Assembly (NCBI GenBank): GCA_951406725.2 | Contig: OX597817.1 | Location: forward strand, 81,468,001 to 81,532,000 | Source: Octopus vulgaris | Lineage: Eukaryota | Direction: 5' to 3' | Length of the DNA stretch: 64,000 nt | In this document: in pieces, positions 31,669 through 64,000 of the stretch | How positions within the stretch are numbered: the first letter of the stretch is position 1 | Layout: each line of letters begins with the position of its first letter | Notes under the pieces: model-generated | Told to the model about the DNA's origin: nothing | The model's input: only the letters and a program-made list of their open reading frames with translations | Database searches by the model: none | Translations under genes and position numbers: made by a program

Positions 31669-34600
31669 CTGGAAAAGGAAAAACAATTGTTTATGAAAAC
31701 TTAAGATAAATATTTGGGCATGTCTGGAAATTGTTATATACTGTTTAACCAAGTATCTGTTCTATAATAGCAGTGGTTCTCAACCATTTTTGGCCTATGA
31801 ACCTCACTGATTCTTATTTTACTCTACTGGACCCTTGTTAAAAAACATAAAAAAAAAGGTTATATTCTTATAGTTAATTAAGAATTTTTTTTTGTGTGTC
31901 AATCATTTGACTGCAGCCATGCTAAGATACTGCCTTAAAAGGTTTTTGTCAAAGAAATTGGTCCCAGGACTTGTTCTTTGTAAGCTTAGTACTTTATTGG
32001 TATCTTTTGCTGAACCACTAAGTTACAGGGACATAAACACACCAACATTGGTTTTCAAGTGATAGTGGAAAGACAAATGATAACACAGACACAAATACAT
32101 GCAGTGGGACTGTGTGGTTGAGAGGGTTCAGTTTCACTGTGTGGCACCTTGGGCAAGTATTTTATACTATAGCCTCAGGCTGATCAAAGCCTTGTGAGTG
32201 GATTTGGTTGACTGAAACTGAAAGAAGCCCGTCGTATATATGTTTGTGTGCCTGTATTTGTTCCCCCAACATCGCTTGACAACCGATGCTGGTGTGTTTA
32301 CGTCCCCTGTAACTTAGCAGTTCGGCAAAAAGAGACCGATAGAATAAGTACCAGGCTTACAAAGAATAAGTCCTGGGGTCGATTTGCTCGACTGAAGGTG
32401 GTGCTCCAGCATGGCCACAGTCAAATGACTGAAACAAATAAAAGAGTATACTTTTTCTGTAGAAGTGTAACAAAATTATTGCTCATAAACTTTAACAATA
32501 TCTTATATGGACCCTGGTTGAGAACCACTGTATTTACAGTTAGACATGTACAAAACTGGAAACTATTCTTTCGTATATTGTTTTAATCAACTGCTAAATG
32601 CAGTTTGATAGATTGAGGGGGAAAAAATGATGATGACCTTGATGAACTTGTCGGAAAGTTAAGAGGGGGCAGAAAGCAGGCATATAAAGTAAAAGTCAGC
32701 AATGAAGACGAGAAGTAGATGCACAGAATAGTGAACATTATGGTTCAAAGAAGGAGTAGTGATGGCAAATTTTGGCAAGCAATGAATTTTTGAAAGATTC
32801 AGTATCTTAACAGCTAACAACATTTCTAATAGAATTTAATCCAGTGATTTAAATAACTTCTATATCACAGCCATTCTGCTTTCATATTATTTATAGCTAC
32901 TGGTTTTTTTTTTAATTAAAAGAAAATGTTATTAACTATAAATGAATTTAATTTATTGTAGATAAATAAAACTAGCAGCAACTATAGAGAAGTTAGTTGT
33001 CTTTGTTGCTAAGAATGGCATGAAGAATAATTGCATTGTTTTCTACTCAGTAAAAAGTGTGTAAACATTTAATGTTCGTCTGGCATGTGTTTGATGGTTT
33101 GACAATCTTATGAGCCAAAGGACTGCATTGAGCTATGGTTGGATGCTCTTCCTAATACCACCTGCTTTACAGTGTTACTGGGTGCTTTTTCATGGCATTG
33201 GTAAGGTGAGCAAATAGCTCAAAAGACAAGGTTCCCAAACTGAGGTGTGAGTGCAGTAGTACTAAGGGGAGGTGCTTTGTGCCAGGTGTTGAGAGGTGGT
33301 AGTTTGTTAAGGACTAAAGAAGAGATACATGGCTACCTCAGCTGGAAAGAGAAAAAAGATGGTGTTAGGATGTACACTCAAGGTACTAGAAAGAGAATTG
33401 GAAAAGGTAAGTGCACAAGTGTGCAAAAGAGTGACAAGTGGTTAGAGATGGGGACAGAGATAAATGCAGTGAAAGTGTGGTCACTGGTGAATCTCAGGTT
33501 GTGGGAGGGGTTATAAAGTGAAGGATATATGGCAGTGGGTCAAGGAGGAGGTGATAAGTGACAGTAAAAAAGACAACAGCAACTGTATAATAAAACTTAA
33601 AAATAAGGAGATGATGATAAATGTCAGTGGAAAGAATGAGAGATGAACAAAATGGAGAGAGGACATTGAAGACGTGTGTAATGTTATTCAGATTGCAGTA
33701 ATCATGGAAGAAATTGCTTAACCCTTTAGCATTCAGATTACTCTGTCACATGTAATGTATATTTATTCACATTTATTTTGAATTAATTATACATTATCTT
33801 ATAGCATCAACATTTCAATGATGTGATTGGTATTTTTAGGACATTGTAAGGTAAATGTGAGAGGCCAGATATGATCAGTTTAAATTATAAAGGGTTTAAG
33901 ACAAGTATTTGTTATGCAAGAAGATACAGTTTCTGCTGGGTAAAAATCAGCAAATGACACCACTTTCCAGTTAGCTGCACATTTTACTAAAATCTTTATC
34001 ATTATTCTGCTGTTCATGGCTGGAATGCAACTGTTTTAACCCTTTGCCTGTCCAAAGCATTTTCAAAAGTTTGTCTTAAATGTCCTTGCTTGTTTTCAGA
34101 CTTTTAGATAGCCTTTGTTTCATATGTTCTGAATATTATAAAGCTTCCTTTTCATAAGTCCCAAGATATTCTGCTGGTCGAAAAAAGAATTAGGAGTGTG
34201 CATCATATATGATGCATGGACGCTAAGGAAATGTTTGTTGTGCGTCATATGATACATGGGACAGGTAAAGGCTCTGTTATCTTTTCGGTAATATAAAAAG
34301 TGAAGATCTACGAGGGGCGTTCAATAAGTAATGCCCCTGACCCACTTCCCATAGCAGTAGAGCAACGAAACTTGGCACAGCTATTAGTCTTTTTCTACAT
34401 AGGAACCACCCAGAGTTACGCATTTCTCCCATTGCTTGATGCAGCTCTGGAGACCGTTTTTGAAGACCCCAACCTGAACGTGACTTCAGAAATCAAGGCT
34501 GCATCATCTGGGAAACGCTTTCCTTTCAAAAACAACTTCATGACTGGGAAGAGGTGAAAATCAGAGGGTGCAAGGTCAGGAAAGTAGGGGGGATGGGGGA

Positions 34601-49637: not shown

Positions 49638-50044
49638 GCGCAGGAGTGGCTGTGTGGTAAGTAGCTTGCTAACCAACCACATGGTTCCAGGTTCAGTCCC
49701 ACTGCGTGGCATCTTGGGCAAGTGTCTTCTGCTATAGCCAGGGGCCGACCAATGCGTTGTGAGTGTATTTGGTAGACGGAAACTGAAAGAAGCCTGTCGT
49801 ATATATGTATATATATATAAGTGTGTGTGTGTATATGTTTGTGTGTCTGTGTTTGTCCCCCTAGCATTGCTTGACAACCGATGCTGGTGTGTTTACGTCC
49901 CTGTCACTTAGCGGTTCGGCAAAAGAGACCAGCATGGCCGCAGTCAAAATGACTGAAACAAGTAAAAGAGTAAAGAGTATATCTATATATACACACACAT
50001 ATATCTATATACACACATATATCTATATACATATATATACATAC

Positions 50045-50075
<31 letters not shown>

Positions 50076-50384
50076 CATACATACATATATATATACATAC
50101 ATATAGGCGGTGAGCTGGCAGAGACGTTAGCGCGCCGGGTGAAATGCTTAGCGGTATTTCATCTGTCATTAAGTTCTGAGTTCAAATTCCGCCGCGGTCG
50201 ACTTTGCCTTTCATCCTTTCGGGGTCGATAGATAAAGTACCAGTTTCGCACTGGGGTCGATGTAATCGACTTAATCTCTTTGTCTGTCCTTGTTTGTCCT
50301 CTCTATGTTTAGCCCCTTGTAGGCAATAAAGAAATATATATATATATACATACATACATATATACATATATATATATGTATATG

Positions 50385-50421
<37 letters not shown>

Positions 50422-50904
50422 ATATATATATATATATGTATATATATATCAGTTATAAAATGAGATAGGGGTTGAAAATTCAACCCACCATGGGATAACA
50501 TATATCCAATATACTGCTAGAGAGGTACCCAACAAGACTAATACATAAATGTTAAAAATTGCCACGCAATTAATTCATTTACTGTATTATGAGGGCAAGG
50601 GTAAAAATATTACCGTAAATTAATAATACAAAATTAGAAAATGGAGAAACATACTTAAATCAATCAAACATCAACCATCAGATAATACCCAATCAATACT
50701 TTATTACACCATTACATAACAGCAAAGACATTATACAAAATATATTGTAAATATAATTAGACAAGGAAAAAGAAATATAAAATACAATTACATCATATCT
50801 GACAGCTGTTTCGGCCGTGAAGACAAGTATGCCTCATTTAACCTATAAGCCATATAAGGCAGGTATGATTGATTTAAGTATGTTTCTCCATTTTCTAATT
50901 TTGT

Positions 50905-50950
<46 letters not shown>

Positions 50951-52016
50951 GTGTATGGCGTTAGGAAGGGCATCCAGCTGTAGAAAGACTGCCAGATCTG
51001 ACTGGCCTGGTGCAGCCTTCGGGCTCCCCAGACCCCAGTTGAACCGTCCAACCCATGCTAGCATGGAAAGCGGACGTTAAACGATGATGATGATGATGAT
51101 GATGTATGTATGTATATGTATATATATATATGTATGTATAAGTGCTTTTGTATTTATTGAAGCATTACCATATGATATATATAACAGGTTTCCACACAGT
51201 TTCTCTCTACCAAATTCACTCACAAGTCATTGGTCAACCTAAGGCTGTAGCAGAAAACATTTGCCCATTGTGCTACACAGTGGGACTGAACCTGAAACCA
51301 TATTGCTTCAAAGTGAGCTTCTTAATAACACAGCTATGTCTGTTGTAATGTTTTATCTTATTTTTAAGGCAGAGGAATATGAGAAAGAAAGTATATTTAT
51401 TTCTTACTGAACGTAGTTTTTCATTGAGTCCCTTCTTCCGGAGTATATCTACAAGTCCTGAAATCTCATTGCTGCTGTGTTTCTCATAGCGTAGTGCATA
51501 GATCATAACAAGACGTAACATGTCGACATCACGGATTTTTTCCTTATTTAACAGGTTCTTAACTTTCTGCGGAATACAAAAAAAGAAAAGAAAAAAATAA
51601 GGAAGAAAGCTAAAATAATATCTTCAGACATACTTACAAATACACACACACAGAGAAAACCTTCTTGGTTGTGTTGCTTTTTGATTTCCCATAATGTTGT
51701 TGTTGTTGTTGTTTAGCCTTAAATCAATCCTGATTGACCAAATTTGTGATCAAAGATTTATAAAGTAATGCTATCACCTTCAACTGAATACCAGTGCAGG
51801 GTGCTTGTTTGAATCAGTTCACTTTGAAAATATCATGACTGATGGACCCTTGATGAAATTGCAGTGACTAGAATGCATAACTGCATACAAAAGAATGTGC
51901 AGTCACTGCAGTCGAAACGTATGTAGGTCAGAGTTATATATGCTGTAGAAAACTTTTTAGTAAAAAAATTTTGGATGTGAATAAATCTCCACTGTCCTCC
52001 TCGTTTATATTATTAC

Positions 52017-52047
<31 letters not shown>

Positions 52048-55000
52048 AAATCAAACCAAGGAAAAAACCATTTCCTTTAAAGAGATGGAAAACATCCAAT
52101 TTTTACTGGTACTGCAGTTGAATATCACAAATAAAATGGCATAAGTACAATATAAGGACAAAGGCGGCAAGCTGGCTGAAGCGTTAGCACGCCAGGCGAA
52201 ATGCTAAGCGGTATTTTGTCTGCTGCTACGTTCTGAGTTCAAATTCCGCCGAGGTTGACTTTGCCTTTCATCCTTTTGGGGTCGATTAAATAAGTACCAG
52301 TTACGCACTGGAGTCGATGTAATCGACTTAATCCGTTTGTCTGTCCATGTTTGTCCCTTCTGTGTTTAGCCCCTTGTGGGTAGTAAAGAAATAGGTATAA
52401 GTACAATATAAAAATATTAAAAGAAATAGAGAAATACAATAGACATATTAAAAATTTATTTACATTATAATATAATACAATTATACTATAAAAAGATTTA
52501 ATATAATATAATAAATAATTAAAACACATATAAATCGAACAACTTGTTTCGACTCCTATCCACTAGTGAATTTATAAAAATTCACATTTATGCGTATAAG
52601 TTTCCTCAGGGTAAAAGTGAATTTTTACAAATTCACTAGTGGATAGGAGTCGAAACAAATTGTTGGATTTATATTTGTTTTAATTAATTGTGATATTATA
52701 TTATATCATATCTTTTTATAGCATAATTATATTATAATGTAAATAAATTTTTAATATGTGTGTTGTATTTTTCTATTTCCTTTAATATTTGTGTGTGTGC
52801 ATGCATGCGTGTGTGTGCAGGCTACCTCAAAGATGACTGACAATGATCTCATCTTCGTGGCTGGGGATTTCAATGGACATGTCAGATGGCAGCCTGATAT
52901 CTTCCATGGTGTACATAGGAGCCACAGGATTGGTTCTTGAAATGAAGAGGGAATAAAGCTACTGGGGTTCTGTGATGCAAATAACACCAATTTCAGGAAG
53001 CCAGCCAGCCAGCCAGCCACCTGATAACCTACCAATCAGGTGACTGTGCTAGCCATATCAATTACATTCTCACCAGACAGTGGAATGCATGGTTGCTCTT
53101 AAATATAAAATCCCTCCCTGGTGAAGAATGTACTCATAGACTAATCATAGACTAATCATTAGTGACTTTAGACCCTAGGCCAGAAGGAAGCTAAGAAGCA
53201 GACCAATCTGGAAAAGAATGATTTGGAAGCTTAAGGACCCTTCATATGGTCAGAGATATAAGGACATCCTAATTGAGAAATTTGATGAGAGGGAGGAAGA
53301 GCTACAGACGTGTGACTTAAGGGCAACTGGGAATTTCTGCAGGATTTTGTGGCTGGTGCAAAGTCCCATCCAGACCTAGGGTAATGTGGTGATGGAACAA
53401 TACTGTAGACAAGGCCACTAGAGCAAAGAAACAAGCCTGGAAGAGTGGGGATAGCAGGGAACTGTATCAGATAGTTAGAAGGGAAGCTATGAGACAGGTA
53501 TATCTAGCCAAGGGAGAAGCAGAAAAGATGAAGTCTGCCTAAGTTTAGCAACATGAGGACCAAAGAACTGGAGTGTTTTGAATTGCAATGCAGTGAATGA
53601 GAGAAAATTGTGATGTCAAAGGAGAGAAATGTGTTCGCATGGATGATGGTACACTTGAATTTAATGATTCTGAAAAGAAAGAGGCTTGGAAATGCTCCAG
53701 GTATGGAAACAAAGTCTCTTCAGGTAGATGACCCTGCTTGATCTGTAGAAAAGGCAAAAGTAGAAACTCCATAAGTTATAAGCTTTGGACACATAGATGT
53801 AACAATATCAGAGGAAGGTTAACAGGGAAAATAGCTTTTGTATGTGGAAGATGCACAAGTACAATAAACGCCGAAAATGGACTCCATCAACTACCAGTGG
53901 AGTAAGCTAGAGGTAGCAGATAGCTTCCATTATCTAGGTGACCAAGTTAGTAGCTGAGGTGGATGCTCTGTGAGTGTAGCTGTAAGAATAAGAATAGTCT
54001 GGGAAAAGTTCAGAGAGTTCCTACCTCAGCTAGCTACAAAGTGCCTCTCCCTCAGAATTAAAGGCAGATTGTATGATGCCTGTCTGTGAAAAGCTATGCT
54101 ACATAGCAGTGAAACATTGGCTATGACAGCCAAGGACATGCGTAGGCTTGAAAGAAATGAAGCCAGTGTGCTTCGCTGGATGTGCAATGTCAGTGTGCAT
54201 GTTTGACAGAGTGTAAGCATCTTAAGAGTAAAGTTAGGCTTAAGAGGCATCAGATGTGGTGTGCAAAAGAGACATCTGCACCGATATGGTCATGTGATGC
54301 ATATGGACGAGGACAGTGGTGTAAAGAAGTGCTGATCTCTAACTGTGGAGGGAATCTGATAGAGGTAGACCCAGGAAAACATGGGACAAGGTTGTAAAGC
54401 ATGATCTTCAAACTTTGGGGCTCACAGAAGCAATGCCTAATGACCAAGACCTTTAGCAACACACTGTGCTTGAGAATACTCATCAAGCCAAGTGAAATCG
54501 TAATCATGGCCGATGCTGGTGTCACATAACTGACATCTGTGCTGGTGGGACCTAAAAAGCACTTTTTGAGCATTGGGCCTCATGGAGACAAAATAGCTGA
54601 GCTGTTTTTGTGTGTTGGCCCTCACAGAGGCAATGACCGAGACCTTTGGCATTATGTCACGCTTAAGAAAAAGAACCATGAAGCTAAGCAAAATCACAGT
54701 CATGGCAAATACCAGTGTCACACAAATGGCACCTGTGTTGGTGACACGCAAAAGCACCCATTACAGTCTCAGAATGGTTGGCGTTATGAAGGGCATCCAG
54801 CTGTAGAAACCATGCCAAATCAGATTGGAGTCTGATGCAGGCTCCCAGCTTGCCAGCCTTGGTCAAACTATCCAACCTATGCCAGCATGGACAACAGACA
54901 TTAATTGATGATGATGATGATGATAATGATACACACACACACACACATAAATATATATACATAATCGGAAAAATAGAATTACAAAATAAAAAGCAAAGAA

Positions 55001-55513
55001 ATCAAATATTAAAAAGAAAAACAATAAAAGTGTACAAAACCTGTAAAGAAGCTGAATGATCATTCTGACAAGCCAGCTCTTGTTCACATTCAGAAACTTC
55101 CAGTAAGTTATGCTGACCAACAAGACGAGACAGTTCACCTACAACAGTAACATGTTTGGAAACTGTTCCGGACATCTTCTTAAACTGGGGGTAATTCTCA
55201 ACAAAAGCCTGCAAAGCATGAAGGTAATTGATAGATGAAGCAAATAAACAATGGTGGAATAGGAAGATCATCATCATGTCAACTTTTCAATGCTTACATG
55301 GGTTGAACAGAATTTATTGAGGTAGATTTTTTTTTTTACAGTTGGAATGTTTCCTGTCACCAAACCTCACCTGTTTCCAAACAAAGTAATATTTCCCCAT
55401 GACAGATCATGTTTTTCACACAAGGTGTGTGTGTTTGTGTGTATGTATGTATATATATAAAAATATTTGAATGAAACAGTTCTAGTCCTGTAGAAGCTCC
55501 TTCTATAAAATAA

Positions 55514-55546
<33 letters not shown>

Positions 55547-55747
55547 TTACAGAGATGTACTTGCATAGCAAGTGACATGATCTGAGATCATGTGTTGGAA
55601 CAAAAACACTTGCAGTGTGGAAGGTGTTTATAAGCCATTTAAGAAACACACAAAATCCGTTAGATTCACTTCAACATTTAAATTTAATTTGTCAAAATAT
55701 TTTCGTTGCTTTGAGACTGCAACCTGTTCACTGACAAAATTCTGTGT

Positions 55748-55795
<48 letters not shown>

Positions 55796-58433
55796 CACAC
55801 ACACACACAGTATACCAAAAATGCATACACACTCAATTTTCATTTCTTTTTAGATTTAACCCATTAGAAATATTGGGTTCAAATTTTGGCACAAAGCCAG
55901 CAAGTTTGAGGGAGTGGGGCAGGATCAGTCAATTACATCGACCCTGGTGCTCGACTGGTACTTATTTTATCAACCCCAAATGGATGAAAGGAAAAGTCAG
56001 CCTCAACAGAATTTGAACGTAAAGACAGATGAAAAGCTGCTAAGCATTTTGCCTGGTATGCTTATGATTCTGCCAGCTTGCCACCTTACTCATTAAAAAT
56101 ATTGAAGGAAACCAGACTAAGCTTTGAACAAAGAAAAAATTTATCCTAAAGTTCTACTGAAAGTTGAATATGCAGTCAAAGTGCAAAATCAGTTTAGAAG
56201 GGAGTTTCAAACAGAGCCATAAATATAATTTATCATCACTCAAATTGGAGATAAATTTGAAGCAGATGGAACTGTTCAGAATGTCCACAAGAAACATTCT
56301 AGAAGATTATGGATATCGACGAGCCCTACAAAGCAAGAAAGGGTACTAGAAATACAGAGCCAGAGGTCAAAAAAATCTTTATAATAAGTGCAGATAACAC
56401 TCGCTCAAGGTGCTGTATGAGTGATTGAACCTGAAATCACATAGTTGAAGAGCCAATGTCTTAACCACACAACCAAGCTTGCACCTATACATCATTTAAA
56501 TTACTTGAGCATTTAAATTACTCAGTCATATGTAATGCTTATTTATTCACATTGTTTTGAATTAATCATATATTATCTTATAGGTTCAAGATTATGATAA
56601 TGTGATTGTTTATTTTTAGATTGACATAGTAAGGTAAGTGTAAGAGGCCTGATCTGGTTGGTTTGAACATAAAACTGGTAGAATATTTTGGTTAGATATG
56701 GCTGGTTTAAATGTTAGAGGTTAACCCTTTAGCATTCAGATTACACTGTCAAATGTAATGTTTATTTATTCACATTTTGATTAATCATGCATTGTCTCAT
56801 AACTTTGAGACTTCAATGTTGTGATTGTTTTATATTTAGAATGGCATTGTAGGATAAGTGTGAGAGACCTGATCTGGCTTGCTTAAACATGAAACTAGTA
56901 GAACATTTTGATCAGAAATGGCTTGTTTAAATGTTAAAAGATTAAAAGTTGCAATACTTTGGATATCTTGATCTTAACTAGCAAACTGTGTCCATTTATG
57001 GGATTGAATTATCAAAATCAAAAGACCTTCTTGTAAAAACAATTCAAAACAGTTCCCCCATTATCATCACTTGTGTCCCTTACTCTATGCTGGTATTGGT
57101 TGGATGGTTCAACAGGAACAAACAAGCTAGAGAGCAGTGCCAAGCTCCACTATCTGCCTGCTTTGGCATAGTTTCCACAGCTGATTCCCTTCCTAACATC
57201 AATCACTTCACAGAGGGTACTGAGTGCTTTTTGTAGCAAAATTTAATTAAATTGGTAGATAAAAATACATGAACAATAAGAAAAATGAACTGTACTTTCA
57301 TATCTGCAATTGATTCCACTTTAGCATGGCCTTTAGACTTCTTTTGAAATTCTTCCATAAGTTGTTTTATGTTGTTGCCAATTTCTCCAAAGTTCATGTA
57401 CAAATTCTGAAAAACGAAGATATTAATTTAGATGAAATGAAATTACTGAACAACAACAATAGTAAATAATACAGATCAGATGGAAATAGTGGTAACACAC
57501 ACACAAACACGTGTGTGTGTTACCACATATATCCACATATACACACACACACACACACTTATTCGCTTTCTCTTTCTCACTCCATTTTGCTCAATAGCCA
57601 CTTTTATGGTCATTCTCTCACAAACCAGCCATCTCAATATGAACACACCATTCCCATTTCTGCCAAAATATTGCCTGGATATTTATGCTATGAACACACT
57701 ACTCATACTTTGCTGTAATACTATCTGGATTTACCTTGGATTTTACCTAAGGATATATGAACTAACATCCATACCCTCTGAAAAATTAACTGTGAACTCT
57801 ATTTCCTTATTTCCTTACTCTCTACTCTTCCATAAAAAAGATAACAATGGCACTCTTCTTTTTTTGCTTCTATATGACCTGGAGGAGTAACCTCAATCCT
57901 ATAAATATTACCAAAATGAAGTGGATTGACAAGTTTATTTTTTGAACCTGTGGAAGACACACAAGATGTCGAAATATCATTCACTTGATAACAATGGCAA
58001 TCTTCTTCTTTTGCTTCTAATAATGATAATAATAATAAAGAGGAATATAAAGGAAATCAGAATGGAGTGCCCAGTACAACTGTTACAAAAGGTTTGCTTC
58101 CTTTGCACCATCAGAATAATCAGGAAAGTATTAGATAGTTGAAAAGAACAGATAGCATGGTACTGTAGGCTACAGGCAGCAAGCTTGCTATACATGCAAA
58201 ACTCTAGGAGTTCCAACAAAATCTGAGTTAATAAATAATAATAGTAATCCTTTCTAATTTGGGGACAGGGCCAGGAATTTTGAAGGGAGGAAGTAAGTCA
58301 GTTACATTGCCCTCAATCCTTAACTAGTACTTATTCTATCTACCTTGAAAGGGTGAAAGACCAAGTCAGCCTCAGAGGAAAATGCCATGAAGCATTTTGT
58401 TTGGTGTATTAACAATTTTGCCAGTTCACTCGC

Positions 58434-58477
<44 letters not shown>

Positions 58478-60496
58478 GCCGTAACTGAAGACAGCCACAG
58501 AAAGAAGAAAGGCCTCAGTATGGCCTGGATTGACTACAAAAAGGCGTTTGATAGCATCCCCCACACATGGATCCTCGAAACACTAGCCATTAACAAAGTA
58601 GCACCAACAATCATAAAATTCATAGAGCACTCTATGAATAAATGGCAAACAGTCCTACACCTCCAAACAAAAGAGGGACTCATGAAAACCAAAGACATCC
58701 CCATTAGAAGAGGAATATTCCAGGGAGACACGCTCTCTCCACTCCTTTTCTGCTTGGCACTGTCACCTCTATCTGATATGCTAAATAGAACTGGATGCGG
58801 ATATAAATGTTACGGCAAAACGATCAGCCACCTTTTATATATGGATGACCTAAAACTATACGCTGCAAATGACAAACAGCTGGAAACACTATTAAAGACA
58901 GTTCATGGATTTACCAAAGAAATAGATATGAAATTTGGATTAGAAAAATGCGCCAAAGTAACCATGAAAAGAGGAAAACTAGTTAAGAGTAACAACATCA
59001 CATTAGATAAAACCAATGAAATAAAAGAATTAGACCAAAGCCAAACTTACAAATACTTAGGAATCCATGAACTAGATAAGACACAACACACACAAATGAA
59101 AGAGAAAATAAAAAAAGAATATTATAGACGAGTTAGATCAATACTAAAAACAGAGCTCAATGCTAAAAACAAGATAATAGGTATCAACACTTTAGCTGTC
59201 CCAGTTATAAGTTACAGCTACAATATCCTTAACTGGACACGAAATGAACTGTCCAAAATAGATAGGAAAACAAGAAAAATACTGACAGGATCTAGGATGC
59301 ATCACCCAAAATCTGACATAGAAAGACTATATATACAACGTATAGAAGGTGGTAGAGGCCTTATACAGCTGGAAAACTACTATAAAATAACCGCCATAGG
59401 ACTGCAAAAATATCTACTTCAGAAGGAAGGAAAACTGATCCAGCAGCAAAACACGAGCAAAACAAAAAACTGTTCTCAGTATTTAAGGAAGCTGACAAAT
59501 ACAAACAAGAAATCATACCACCTAATAAACATGAAGAAGAAGAAGAAGATGATGAAGAAACAACAAAAGCTATAAAACAAATGAAATCCAAACTAAAAAT
59601 AGAACAGCAACGAACCATGATAAAACGATGGCAAGAAAAACCCCTTCATGGTAAATACTGCACTAAACTAAACGCAAAAGAAATAGACAAAGAAAAATCC
59701 CAGCAATGGTTGAGAAGCTCAGTACTCAAAGCAGAAACAGAGGGATTTTTAATTGCAGCACAAGACCAAAGCCTCCCCACCAGAAATTACCAAAAACATG
59801 TAATGAAAAGAAATATTACAAGTAACTGCAGAATATGTGGAGATGGACAAGAAACAATAAATCATATTATCTCTAGCTGCCCAGTCCTGGCTAAGAAGGA
59901 ATATATTCACAGACATGACAGAGTTGGAACCTACATACATTGGAAGCTATGCCAACATTATGGAATAACAACAGAAAAAAGATGGTATAGGCACACACCA
60001 GAAAAGGTCACAGAAAACGAGAAAGCAACCATACTCTGGGATATGCCGATACACACAGATAGAGAAATTAAGCCCAACAGACCAGATATAGTTGTCAGAG
60101 ATCATGAAGAAAAAAATGCTTTCTAATTGATGTATCAATACCGGCAGATGACAACGTGTCTCTAAAAGAAATGGAGAAACTCTCAAAATACAAAGACCTG
60201 GAAATAGAGGTAACTAGAATGTGGAATCTGAAAACAGAAACAATTCCTATCATAGTAGGTGCATTAGGCATGATAAAAAAATATTCAGACAAATACATAA
60301 CAAAAACACCAGGACTTACAAACACATATAACATACAGAAAATTGCACTACTAGGCACTGCACACATCCTACGCAGAACACTTTCCATACAATAACCATC
60401 AGAGCATCACAGCACATACCCAAGGCACACAGAGCTGCGCTCGGTAGTGAAGTGAAAGCACGCTATAAAAATAGAACTACTGAATAATAATAATAA

Positions 60497-63297: not shown

Positions 63298-64000
63298 CTG
63301 TAAATGGAAAGCATAAAATGAAGTTACAAAATATGAAATGATGAAAGACAATGTTTTACTGAAGTCTATCACTTAATCCATTTGATACCAACATTCTTGA
63401 GATAGCTCTTGGTTCTATTATACAAGTTTCCTGTGTTTAAGTGATCTGAATTTAAAATTTTCCATCCAAATTTTCTTTTATTTTTCAAACATAAGCTTAA
63501 TAATGACAATATTATTTTACAAAATTCTTCATTATTTTTTAGAAGAATTCAAACAAAGCAAAGTATTTCATTAGAAATATAGTTAAGTAAAGAAGTCCTT
63601 AGGTCACCATGAAAAACATGGAAATATAAAAGAGAAGAAATACAACCGATTTTCTTCATAATTTTTCTGACTTTGCAGCATGGAAGGTGTTTATAAGCCA
63701 TTTAAGAAACACACAAAAACCGTTAGATTCACTTCAACATTTAAATTTAATTTGTCAAAATATTTTTGGCGCTTTGAGACCACGACCTGTTCACTGACAA
63801 AATTTCGTGCTGCATCACTTTGTTGTAGTAAAAAGTAGAATCATTAGAGCATGTGACAAAATCCTTGTGGTATTTAGTTACAGCTCTTTCAAATCCTATG
63901 AGATTAACTTTACTATTTATCCTTTTGAGGTCAATAAAATAATTTACTAATCAAATACTAGGTTTGATTTAATATTTTAATAAAATATCCTAGATTTGAA

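What the first reader, a model, noticed from the sequence alone, without database searches (positions are those of the whole stretch)
55688..55738. Dispersed repeat with hammerhead ribozyme geometry and a swapped G3-C8 core
Seen: the minus strand (VPS45 sense) reads TTTGTCA|GTGAACA|G|GTTGC-agtctcaaa-GCAAC|GAA|AATATT|T|TGACAAA. That gives a 7-bp stem I, a 5-bp stem II, G12-A13-A14, a 6-nt palindromic stem III and a UUU site, with one extra G after A9. Known: minimal type-I hammerheads of Penelope-like elements and newt satellite 2 have this layout and use the palindromic stem III to dimerise. C3-G8 is a tertiary Watson-Crick pair, and a G3-C8 double swap partly rescues cleavage in vitro. GUGAACA is exactly CUGANGA with both positions swapped. 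Inference: a natural variant ribozyme family spread by a short mobile repeat, which standard CUGANGA searches would miss.
Basis: partly seen in the sequence, partly recalled or inferred. Interest (0 to 1): 0.85.

Follow-up and report, generated by a model that had tools for sequence, protein, structure and literature searches.

The report
Penelope-element hammerhead with swapped core pair
This intron repeat is a leftover end-piece of a Penelope-like jumping gene whose hammerhead-shaped RNA motif has two paired core letters swapped relative to its sister families, which likely means selection kept the cutting fold, although cutting itself is untested.

Summary
The motif is real and sits in a ~210-nt repeat with at least 4,693 copies. 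The repeat is a solo pseudo-LTR (pLTR) of an RT + GIY-YIG Penelope-like element (PLE), not a free short element. One near-full-length copy reads pLTR, ORF, pLTR, and its tail encodes the ORF start. A sister family, found through the protein alone (55% identity), has C3-G8 at the aligned positions. Four related families keep G3-C8 and U17 while their flanks fall to 65-71% identity. The same genome also holds U3-A8 and A3-U8 PLE hammerheads. This supports selection on the 3-8 pair between families. Copy 5' ends do not pile up at the predicted cut. Cleavage is untested. Natural G3-C8 was not in the papers I could read, but the main survey (Lünse 2017) was not available. Verdict: new variant of a known kind.

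The parts
55546..55755 (-). Solo pLTR plus tail of a Penelope-like element (subfamily A), decayed, in a Vps45-like intron
   Evidence: Aligns to the subfamily A majority sequence over positions 3-211; homologous to the ends of RT + GIY-YIG copies
55688..55738 (-). Type I minimal hammerhead motif with G3-C8 core
55732..55738 (-). Stem I, 5' strand (7 nt)
   Evidence: pair probabilities 0.70-1.0 in a whole subfamily B unit
55725..55731 (-). Core positions 3-9 (G3 at 55731, C8 at 55726)
   Evidence: G-C in 62 of 71 copies chosen outside the motif
55724..55724 (-). Extra nucleotide between A9 and G10.1
   Evidence: a nucleotide here is a described feature of PLE hammerheads (PMC4209133)
55705..55723 (-). 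Stem II (5 bp) with 9-nt loop II; one pair altered by CpG decay in this copy
55695..55704 (-). G12-A13-A14, A15.1, 4-nt loop III, U16.1 and U17; predicted scissile bond between 55695 and 55694
   Evidence: the position of the bond is inferred from hammerhead numbering
55688..55694 (-). Stem I, 3' strand (7 nt)
55546..55638 (-). Start codon (55638-55636) and first 31 codons of the PLE ORF; the last ~60 nt form the optional tail; broken by a stop in this copy
   Evidence: In L268 the same ATG opens a frame that runs on into the element's protein; homologous to the sister family's N-terminus
55752..55793 (.). (TA)n tract at the 5' junction, the likely insertion target
   Evidence: 73 of 101 copies have (TA)n within 14 nt of their 3' end
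63673..63816 (-). Second copy without tail; G12 is mutated to A and stem II has a mismatch, so it is predicted dead

Best explanation
The motif is the hammerhead of the pseudo-LTR of an RT + GIY-YIG Penelope-like retrotransposon, in a lineage whose core 3-8 pair is G-C where its sister families have C-G; it likely still works as a slow, probably protein-assisted self-cleaving RNA on the master elements, while this intron copy is a decaying passenger. Shown: the repeat is the element's end and overlaps the ORF start; the 3-8 states are reciprocal between homologous families; G3-C8 goes with U17. Inferred: the swap arose once from C3-G8; it was kept because the 3-8 pair forms in the active core; U17 avoids a G3-C17 mispair; any cleavage needs a second hammerhead or the element's protein; most copies were reverse-transcribed from uncut RNA, starting at two sites inside the ORF start.
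For: Linkage: five ORF-bearing copies carry the motif 982-1,038 nt after the stop codon. L268 reads pLTR, ATG, ORF (one stop, one frameshift), pLTR, with the two motifs 4,261 nt apart. The C-terminus matches Pfam GIY-YIG above cut-off. PLE anatomy in 101 copies chosen outside the motif: 56 have an inverted partner, 54 end with the tail and 46 without, 73 end at (TA)n; this matches PMC8557442 and PMC11167929. Sister family found by protein search (442 of 800 residues identical) has C3-G8 and an A-U for G-C change in stem II; core 8 of 9 v flanks 52 of 139 identical. Families B, C, D keep core 9 of 9, stem II 10 of 10, G3 and C8, with flanks 94%, 65%, 71% and loop II 2-4 of 9. In family D, where the search left 3 and 8 free, 22 of 30 are G-C and none is C-G. 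Stem I has a compensatory change in C and D. U17 in 97 of 98 A/B copies; C17 in 8 of 13 S1/S3 and 3 of 3 S2 copies. Predicted G3-N17 pairing is 0.98 with C17 v 0.67 with U17, in line with a data-not-shown remark in PMC3884650. In a PLE hammerhead, C3G/G8C partly restores cleavage, which needs the protein (PMC11167929).
Against: No cleavage data. The swap is one event on the tree, so the covariation counts are not independent. Families C, D, S2-S4 were found with motif-based patterns or seeds, which inflates their conservation; only S1 is free of that. Only 2 of 101 copies start near the predicted cut, and those two are a local duplication; 56 start 5' of stem I. The loop III segment self-pairs at only -0.2 kcal/mol, and cofolding two copies did not form the expected dimer helix. 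Family C lacks the palindrome, and the young C3-G8 sister has C at position 9, so cores may be drifting. S4 has C3-G8 with U17 (9 of 9), so U17 is not specific to the swap. PMC11167929 found that hammerhead mutants do not impair insertion in vitro.
Confidence: 0.7

Rival explanations
1. The motif descends from a PLE hammerhead but no longer cuts; its fold is kept for another job, such as binding the element's protein or shaping the 5' UTR, promoter or splice site.
For: No pile-up of 5' ends at the cut; A-U-only palindrome and G3-U17 wobble trap; non-palindromic loop III in family C; insertion is independent of cleavage in vitro (PMC11167929); function described as unclear in PMC8557442.
Against: The single-stranded catalytic positions are unchanged between families whose flanks share 42-71% identity (A v C, D, S2, S4). 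Positions 3 and 8 changed together, and this pair is described as a feature of the active core (PMC3884650).
Confidence: 0.22
2. The ~210-nt unit is an independent non-autonomous element of the retrozyme or SINE type that spreads through a self-cleaved circular RNA.
For: Most copies are short and share a sharp 5' boundary (56 of 101); retrozymes are proposed to derive from pLTRs (bioRxiv 10.64898/2026.07.22.740005); a few direct repeats exist (L009, L016).
Against: 0 head-to-tail junctions with a spacer up to 25 nt for the exact pattern tried; the direct repeats seen are separated by (TA)n; 552 copies extend 5' into the element's UTR; the unit is contiguous with an RT-EN ORF at both ends. Short copies may still come from a short transcript of their own.
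Confidence: 0.06
3. The hammerhead geometry is a chance pattern in an AT-rich repeat.
For: Folding z-score only -1.9; no Rfam match; single copies show no selection.
Against: It aligns column for column with canonical CUGANGA motifs in homologous pLTRs; 0 descriptor hits in 60 simulations.
Confidence: 0.02

Closest known systems
Minimal type I hammerheads of metazoan PLE pLTRs, including U3-A8 (Cervera & de la Peña 2014, PMC4209133; read: Results, Discussion, part of Methods, supplement 2 part 2)
   Same: Type I layout in a pLTR; extra nucleotide between 9 and 10.1; G10.1-C11.1; one-pair stem III with palindromic loop; mostly solo copies, often in inverted pairs; U17 common.
   Different: Core is G3-C8; the supplement rows I read show only C or U at position 3. 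The extra nucleotide is G where their consensus gives H. Stem I is 7 bp.
PAc (Anolis Poseidon) hammerhead and tail mechanism (Frangieh et al. 2024, PMC11167929; read: parts 1-2 of 4, main text)
   Same: Hammerhead next to the ORF start; two 3' ends inside the ORF start that define the tail; AT-rich targets; uncut RNA as the main template.
   Different: There C3G/G8C is an engineered partial rescue; here it is the natural state. Here the ATG lies about 55 nt past the predicted cut, and the protein has a CX3CX2C linker that Penelope/Poseidon lack.
Short-stem-III hammerheads of PLEs that cleave as dimers (Lünse et al. 2017; seen only as a citation in PMC6765202)
   Same: By the review's account: very short palindromic stem III, type I, PLE-associated.
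   Different: Cannot tell; the paper was not held and may already list G3-C8.
Natural core variants of Perreault et al. 2011 (PMC3088659; read: section 8 and passages)
   Same: Natural covariation at 3-8 (U3-A8).
   Different: G3-C8 and A3-U8 are not named in the text I read; Figure 5 and the supplements were not seen.
Non-LTR retrozymes (bioRxiv 10.64898/2026.07.22.740005; read: parts 1-2 of 5)
   Same: Short hammerhead-bearing units related to pLTRs.
   Different: Defined as tandem arrays; this family is solo or head-to-head and has an autonomous parent.

Membership tests
Penelope-like element (C-terminal EN+) | Single ORF with RT followed by GIY-YIG endonuclease | tested here: met
   YVDD-bearing RT region and Pfam GIY-YIG above cut-off. 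The RT fragment did not hit Pfam RVT_1; it aligns weakly to another PLE RT (E 4.5e-4).
Penelope-like element (C-terminal EN+) | pLTRs flanking the ORF; inverted 5'-truncated partners; one-sided tail | tested here: met
   L268; 56 of 101 inverted, 54 with tail v 46 without
Neptune or Nematis clade | CX2-5CxxC linker before the GIY-YIG domain; placement in an RT tree | tested here: inconclusive
   CX3CX2C is present (definition from PMC8557442). No tree with reference PLEs was built, so the clade is not assigned.
Minimal PLE hammerhead | Literal core CUGANGA | tested here: not met
   Positions 3 and 8 are G and C
Minimal PLE hammerhead | Watson-Crick 3-8 pair with U4, G5, A6, A9, G12, A13, A14, A15.1-U16.1 and H17 | tested here: met
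Minimal PLE hammerhead | Stems I and II, G10.1-C11.1, extra nucleotide after A9 | tested here: met
   compensatory changes between families
Minimal PLE hammerhead | Palindromic stem/loop III for dimer formation | tested here: inconclusive
   Palindromic in A, B and (shorter) D; not in C or S1; -0.2 kcal/mol for A/B
Minimal PLE hammerhead | Site-specific self-cleavage | not testable with these tools
   Only assembled contigs were available; they cannot show RNA ends
Rfam hammerhead families | Covariance-model match | tested here: not met
   No hammerhead family among 62 matches at E <= 10 in 50000-60000
Non-LTR retrozyme | Head-to-tail tandem units without coding capacity | tested here: not met
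   0 junctions for the pattern tried; unit overlaps a PLE ORF start

The most novel reading that the evidence does not exclude
A PLE lineage crossed a two-transversion valley in the hammerhead active site and has run for a long time on a fully swapped G3-C8 core with U17. All four Watson-Crick states of the 3-8 pair (C-G, U-A, A-U, G-C) coexist in PLE families of one genome. That would show that PLE hammerhead catalysis is under selection, and that many PLE families scored as lacking a hammerhead carry swapped cores that CUGANGA searches cannot see.
Probability: 0.45. Interest if true: 0.72.

Novelty: new variant of a known kind. Interest (0 to 1): 0.56.

Why it matters
What PLE hammerheads do is an open question: they cleave poorly, are dispensable for insertion in vitro (PMC11167929) and have been suggested to be parasites of the element (PMC8557442). 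A reciprocal swap of a pair that belongs to the active core, kept across several families, argues for selection on the catalytic fold. The two sister lineages give a natural matched pair for assays with their own proteins. Practically, descriptors should allow any Watson-Crick pair at 3-8; this genome alone holds thousands of G3-C8 and at least 717 A3-U8 motifs that the standard descriptor misses.

Tried and rejected
Rfam scan: no hammerhead match. Pfam GIY-YIG search: the 30 best loci and 20 longer stretches were other PLE families, into whose (TA)n ends this repeat had merely inserted; none was the parent. Pairs of copies 2.7-6.4 kb apart were nested in larger duplications, not full elements. 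A search for unrelated G3-C8 families with an ACNNGT loop III gave 23 hits v 26 in the control; only L174 proved related. Retrozyme junction search: 0. A cap-derived extra G at the 5' junction: G in 7 of 18 copies, confounded by microhomology, not accepted. Expression: no RNA holder listed; contigs cannot show ends or strand. Literature: 'G3-C8' gave 1 paper, 'G3C8' 0, 'C3G'+'G8C' 2, 'U3-A8' 1, 'C3 and G8' set 2, 'positions 3 and 8' 0, 'hammerhead ribozyme'+'octopus' 5 (4 listed); none described a natural G3-C8 in what I read. Lünse 2017 and a hammerhead review could not be read; bioRxiv supplements and one file of PMC4209133 were not seen and may bear on novelty.

Full report
Observation. RNAfold returns stems I and II with z = -1.9, so the fold alone proves little. 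No Rfam hammerhead model matches. A descriptor allowing any Watson-Crick pair at 3-8 found this one site in the window and none in 60 simulated windows. The site lies between Sec1-family exons at 57296-57409 and 55047-55232 on the same strand; the latter best matches Vps45. A second copy at 63673-63816 has lost G12.

The repeat. The unit is about 210 nt. Exact-match counts are 1,139 for a 34-mer across the motif and 4,693 for a 30-mer outside it, each with 0 control hits. I fetched the first 100 listed places of the second search, all on one contig, which gave 101 aligned copies chosen without regard to the motif. Of these, 56 have an inverted partner within 400 nt upstream, 54 end with a ~60-nt tail and 46 without it, and 73 have (TA)n within 14 nt of the 3' end. 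That is the PLE anatomy described in PMC8557442 (passages). Two subfamilies exist, A (38 copies, mean 4.0% from their majority sequence) and B (35 copies, 2.3%); 28 copies are truncated in loop II or beyond.

The parent element. Loose ends in public contigs pointed to a 5' extension present in 552 copies. The longest run about 1 kb up into the end of a GIY-YIG ORF. A protein search gave about 70 close matches and a sister family at 55-57% identity among 150 scored. Five ORF-bearing copies have the motif 982-1,038 nt after the stop. L268 reads pLTR, ATG, ORF with one stop and one frameshift, then pLTR. The tail is the first codons of that ORF. This fits the two internal reverse-transcription starts shown for the Anolis element (PMC11167929, main text). 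The repeat is therefore a solo pLTR. The linker is CX3CX2C, of Neptune or Nematis type; I did not assign the clade.

The swap. The sister family was found by protein alone (442 of 800 residues identical). Its pLTR aligns to ours and has C3 and G8 where ours has G3 and C8, plus A-U for G-C in stem II. A pattern for the C3-G8 lineage gave 5,079 hits, among them subfamilies with the canonical CUGANGA core. Older relatives C and D keep G3-C8; in D, where 3 and 8 were left free, 22 of 30 fetched copies (of 31 hits) are G-C, 8 differ at one position and none is C-G. Against family A, the other core positions are 9 of 9 identical in B, C, D, S2, S3 and S4 and 8 of 9 in S1 and S3b, while flanks are 37-94% identical and loop II 1-4 of 9. 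In a hand-picked alignment of 16 copies the 3-8 pair is G-C in 10 and C-G in 6, never unpaired. A nine-row tree splits G3-C8 from C3-G8 families at 100/100. This is one event, the root is a midpoint, and the direction is inferred from the canonical core. In four public runs labelled as four organisms, 97.5-98.7% of depth reads C at position 8, and the listed variants inside the motif lie in loop II or keep a G-U pair; one run may be the assembly's own sample.

Position 17. U17 is in 97 of 98 A/B copies; S1/S3 have C in 8 of 13 and S2 in 3 of 3, but S4 has U in 9 of 9. A C17 would pair with G3 (predicted 0.98 v 0.67 for U), the mirror of the C3-G17 trap; PMC3884650 mentions, data not shown, that G3-C8 is less active with C17 (passages). 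That U17 eased the swap is an inference.

Results against. The window's apparent compensatory pair in stem II is CpG decay. The loop III segment self-pairs at -0.2 kcal/mol against -4.6 and -8.3 for two other families, and cofolding two copies did not give the dimer helix. Family C has no palindrome and the youngest sister has C9. Only 2 of 101 copies begin near the predicted cut, while 56 begin upstream of stem I, so most templates were uncut, as reported for the Anolis element. Families C, D and S2-S4 were found with motif-based seeds, which favours conservation.

Mechanism. Shown: a pLTR-borne type I hammerhead motif with reciprocal 3-8 states in homologous families. Inferred: transcripts of full elements carry two motifs about 4.3 kb apart; cleavage, if any, is slow and helped by the partner motif or the element's protein, as in PMC4209133 and PMC11167929, where the engineered C3G/G8C form partly cleaves. 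Most insertions bypass cleavage. The Vps45-intron copy is a solo, decayed monomer and probably does nothing to the host transcript. I put this at 0.70, a non-cutting structural role at 0.22, a retrozyme at 0.06 and chance at 0.02.

Novelty. PLE minimal hammerheads and natural U3-A8 are published (PMC4209133, PMC3088659). G3-C8 appears only as an engineered rescue in what I could read (searches). The largest survey, Lünse et al. 2017, was not available, so absence from print is not established. Two unchecked notes of this scan report G3-C8 motifs behind PLE genes in other genomes; I did not test them. This genome also has U3-A8 and A3-U8 motifs (717 exact hits) behind GIY-YIG ORFs. Verdict: new variant of a known kind, interest 0.56.

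Noticed in passing
L058:+2050, L087, L344-L355: A separate PLE family carries an A3-U8 minimal hammerhead with a 2-bp stem II, a strong palindromic loop III and C17; 717 exact pattern hits; 10 of 12 fetched loci pass the descriptor and 3 have a same-strand GIY-YIG region upstream. I saw no natural A3-U8 in the papers read.
   Followed up: partly
L045, L047, L048, L051, L056, L062, L069, L116: PLE families, one with an intact 781-aa ORF, carry U3-A8 hammerheads, some with A17.
   Followed up: partly
L272-L275 (sister family S1): A very young PLE with a 1,310-1,312-aa ORF holding a long Asn-rich insert; its hammerhead has C in place of A9 and a non-palindromic loop III, while older subfamilies have A9.
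   Followed up: partly
L226-L250, just 5' of window position 55755 in longer copies: The sharp 5' boundary of short copies falls at a branch-point-like motif, pyrimidine tract and CAG about 15 nt before stem I. It may be a splice acceptor, as near the D. virilis Penelope hammerhead, or a transcription start; unresolved.
   Followed up: partly
L021, L066, L072, L116, L172: The repeat often sits in the (TA)n tract at the end of, or beside, other PLE insertions, which suggests shared targets.
   Followed up: no
window 52412-52790, 340-1496, 31888-32443: Long inverted repeats seen in the self-comparison of the window; not examined.
   Followed up: no
L032, L033, L037: Copies of the repeat are nested inside a larger ~3-4 kb repeat with long inverted arms, present at several loci at 95-99% identity.
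   Followed up: no
L072, L086, L172, L278: A short repeat with a canonical C3-G8 minimal hammerhead occurs near several loci.
   Followed up: no
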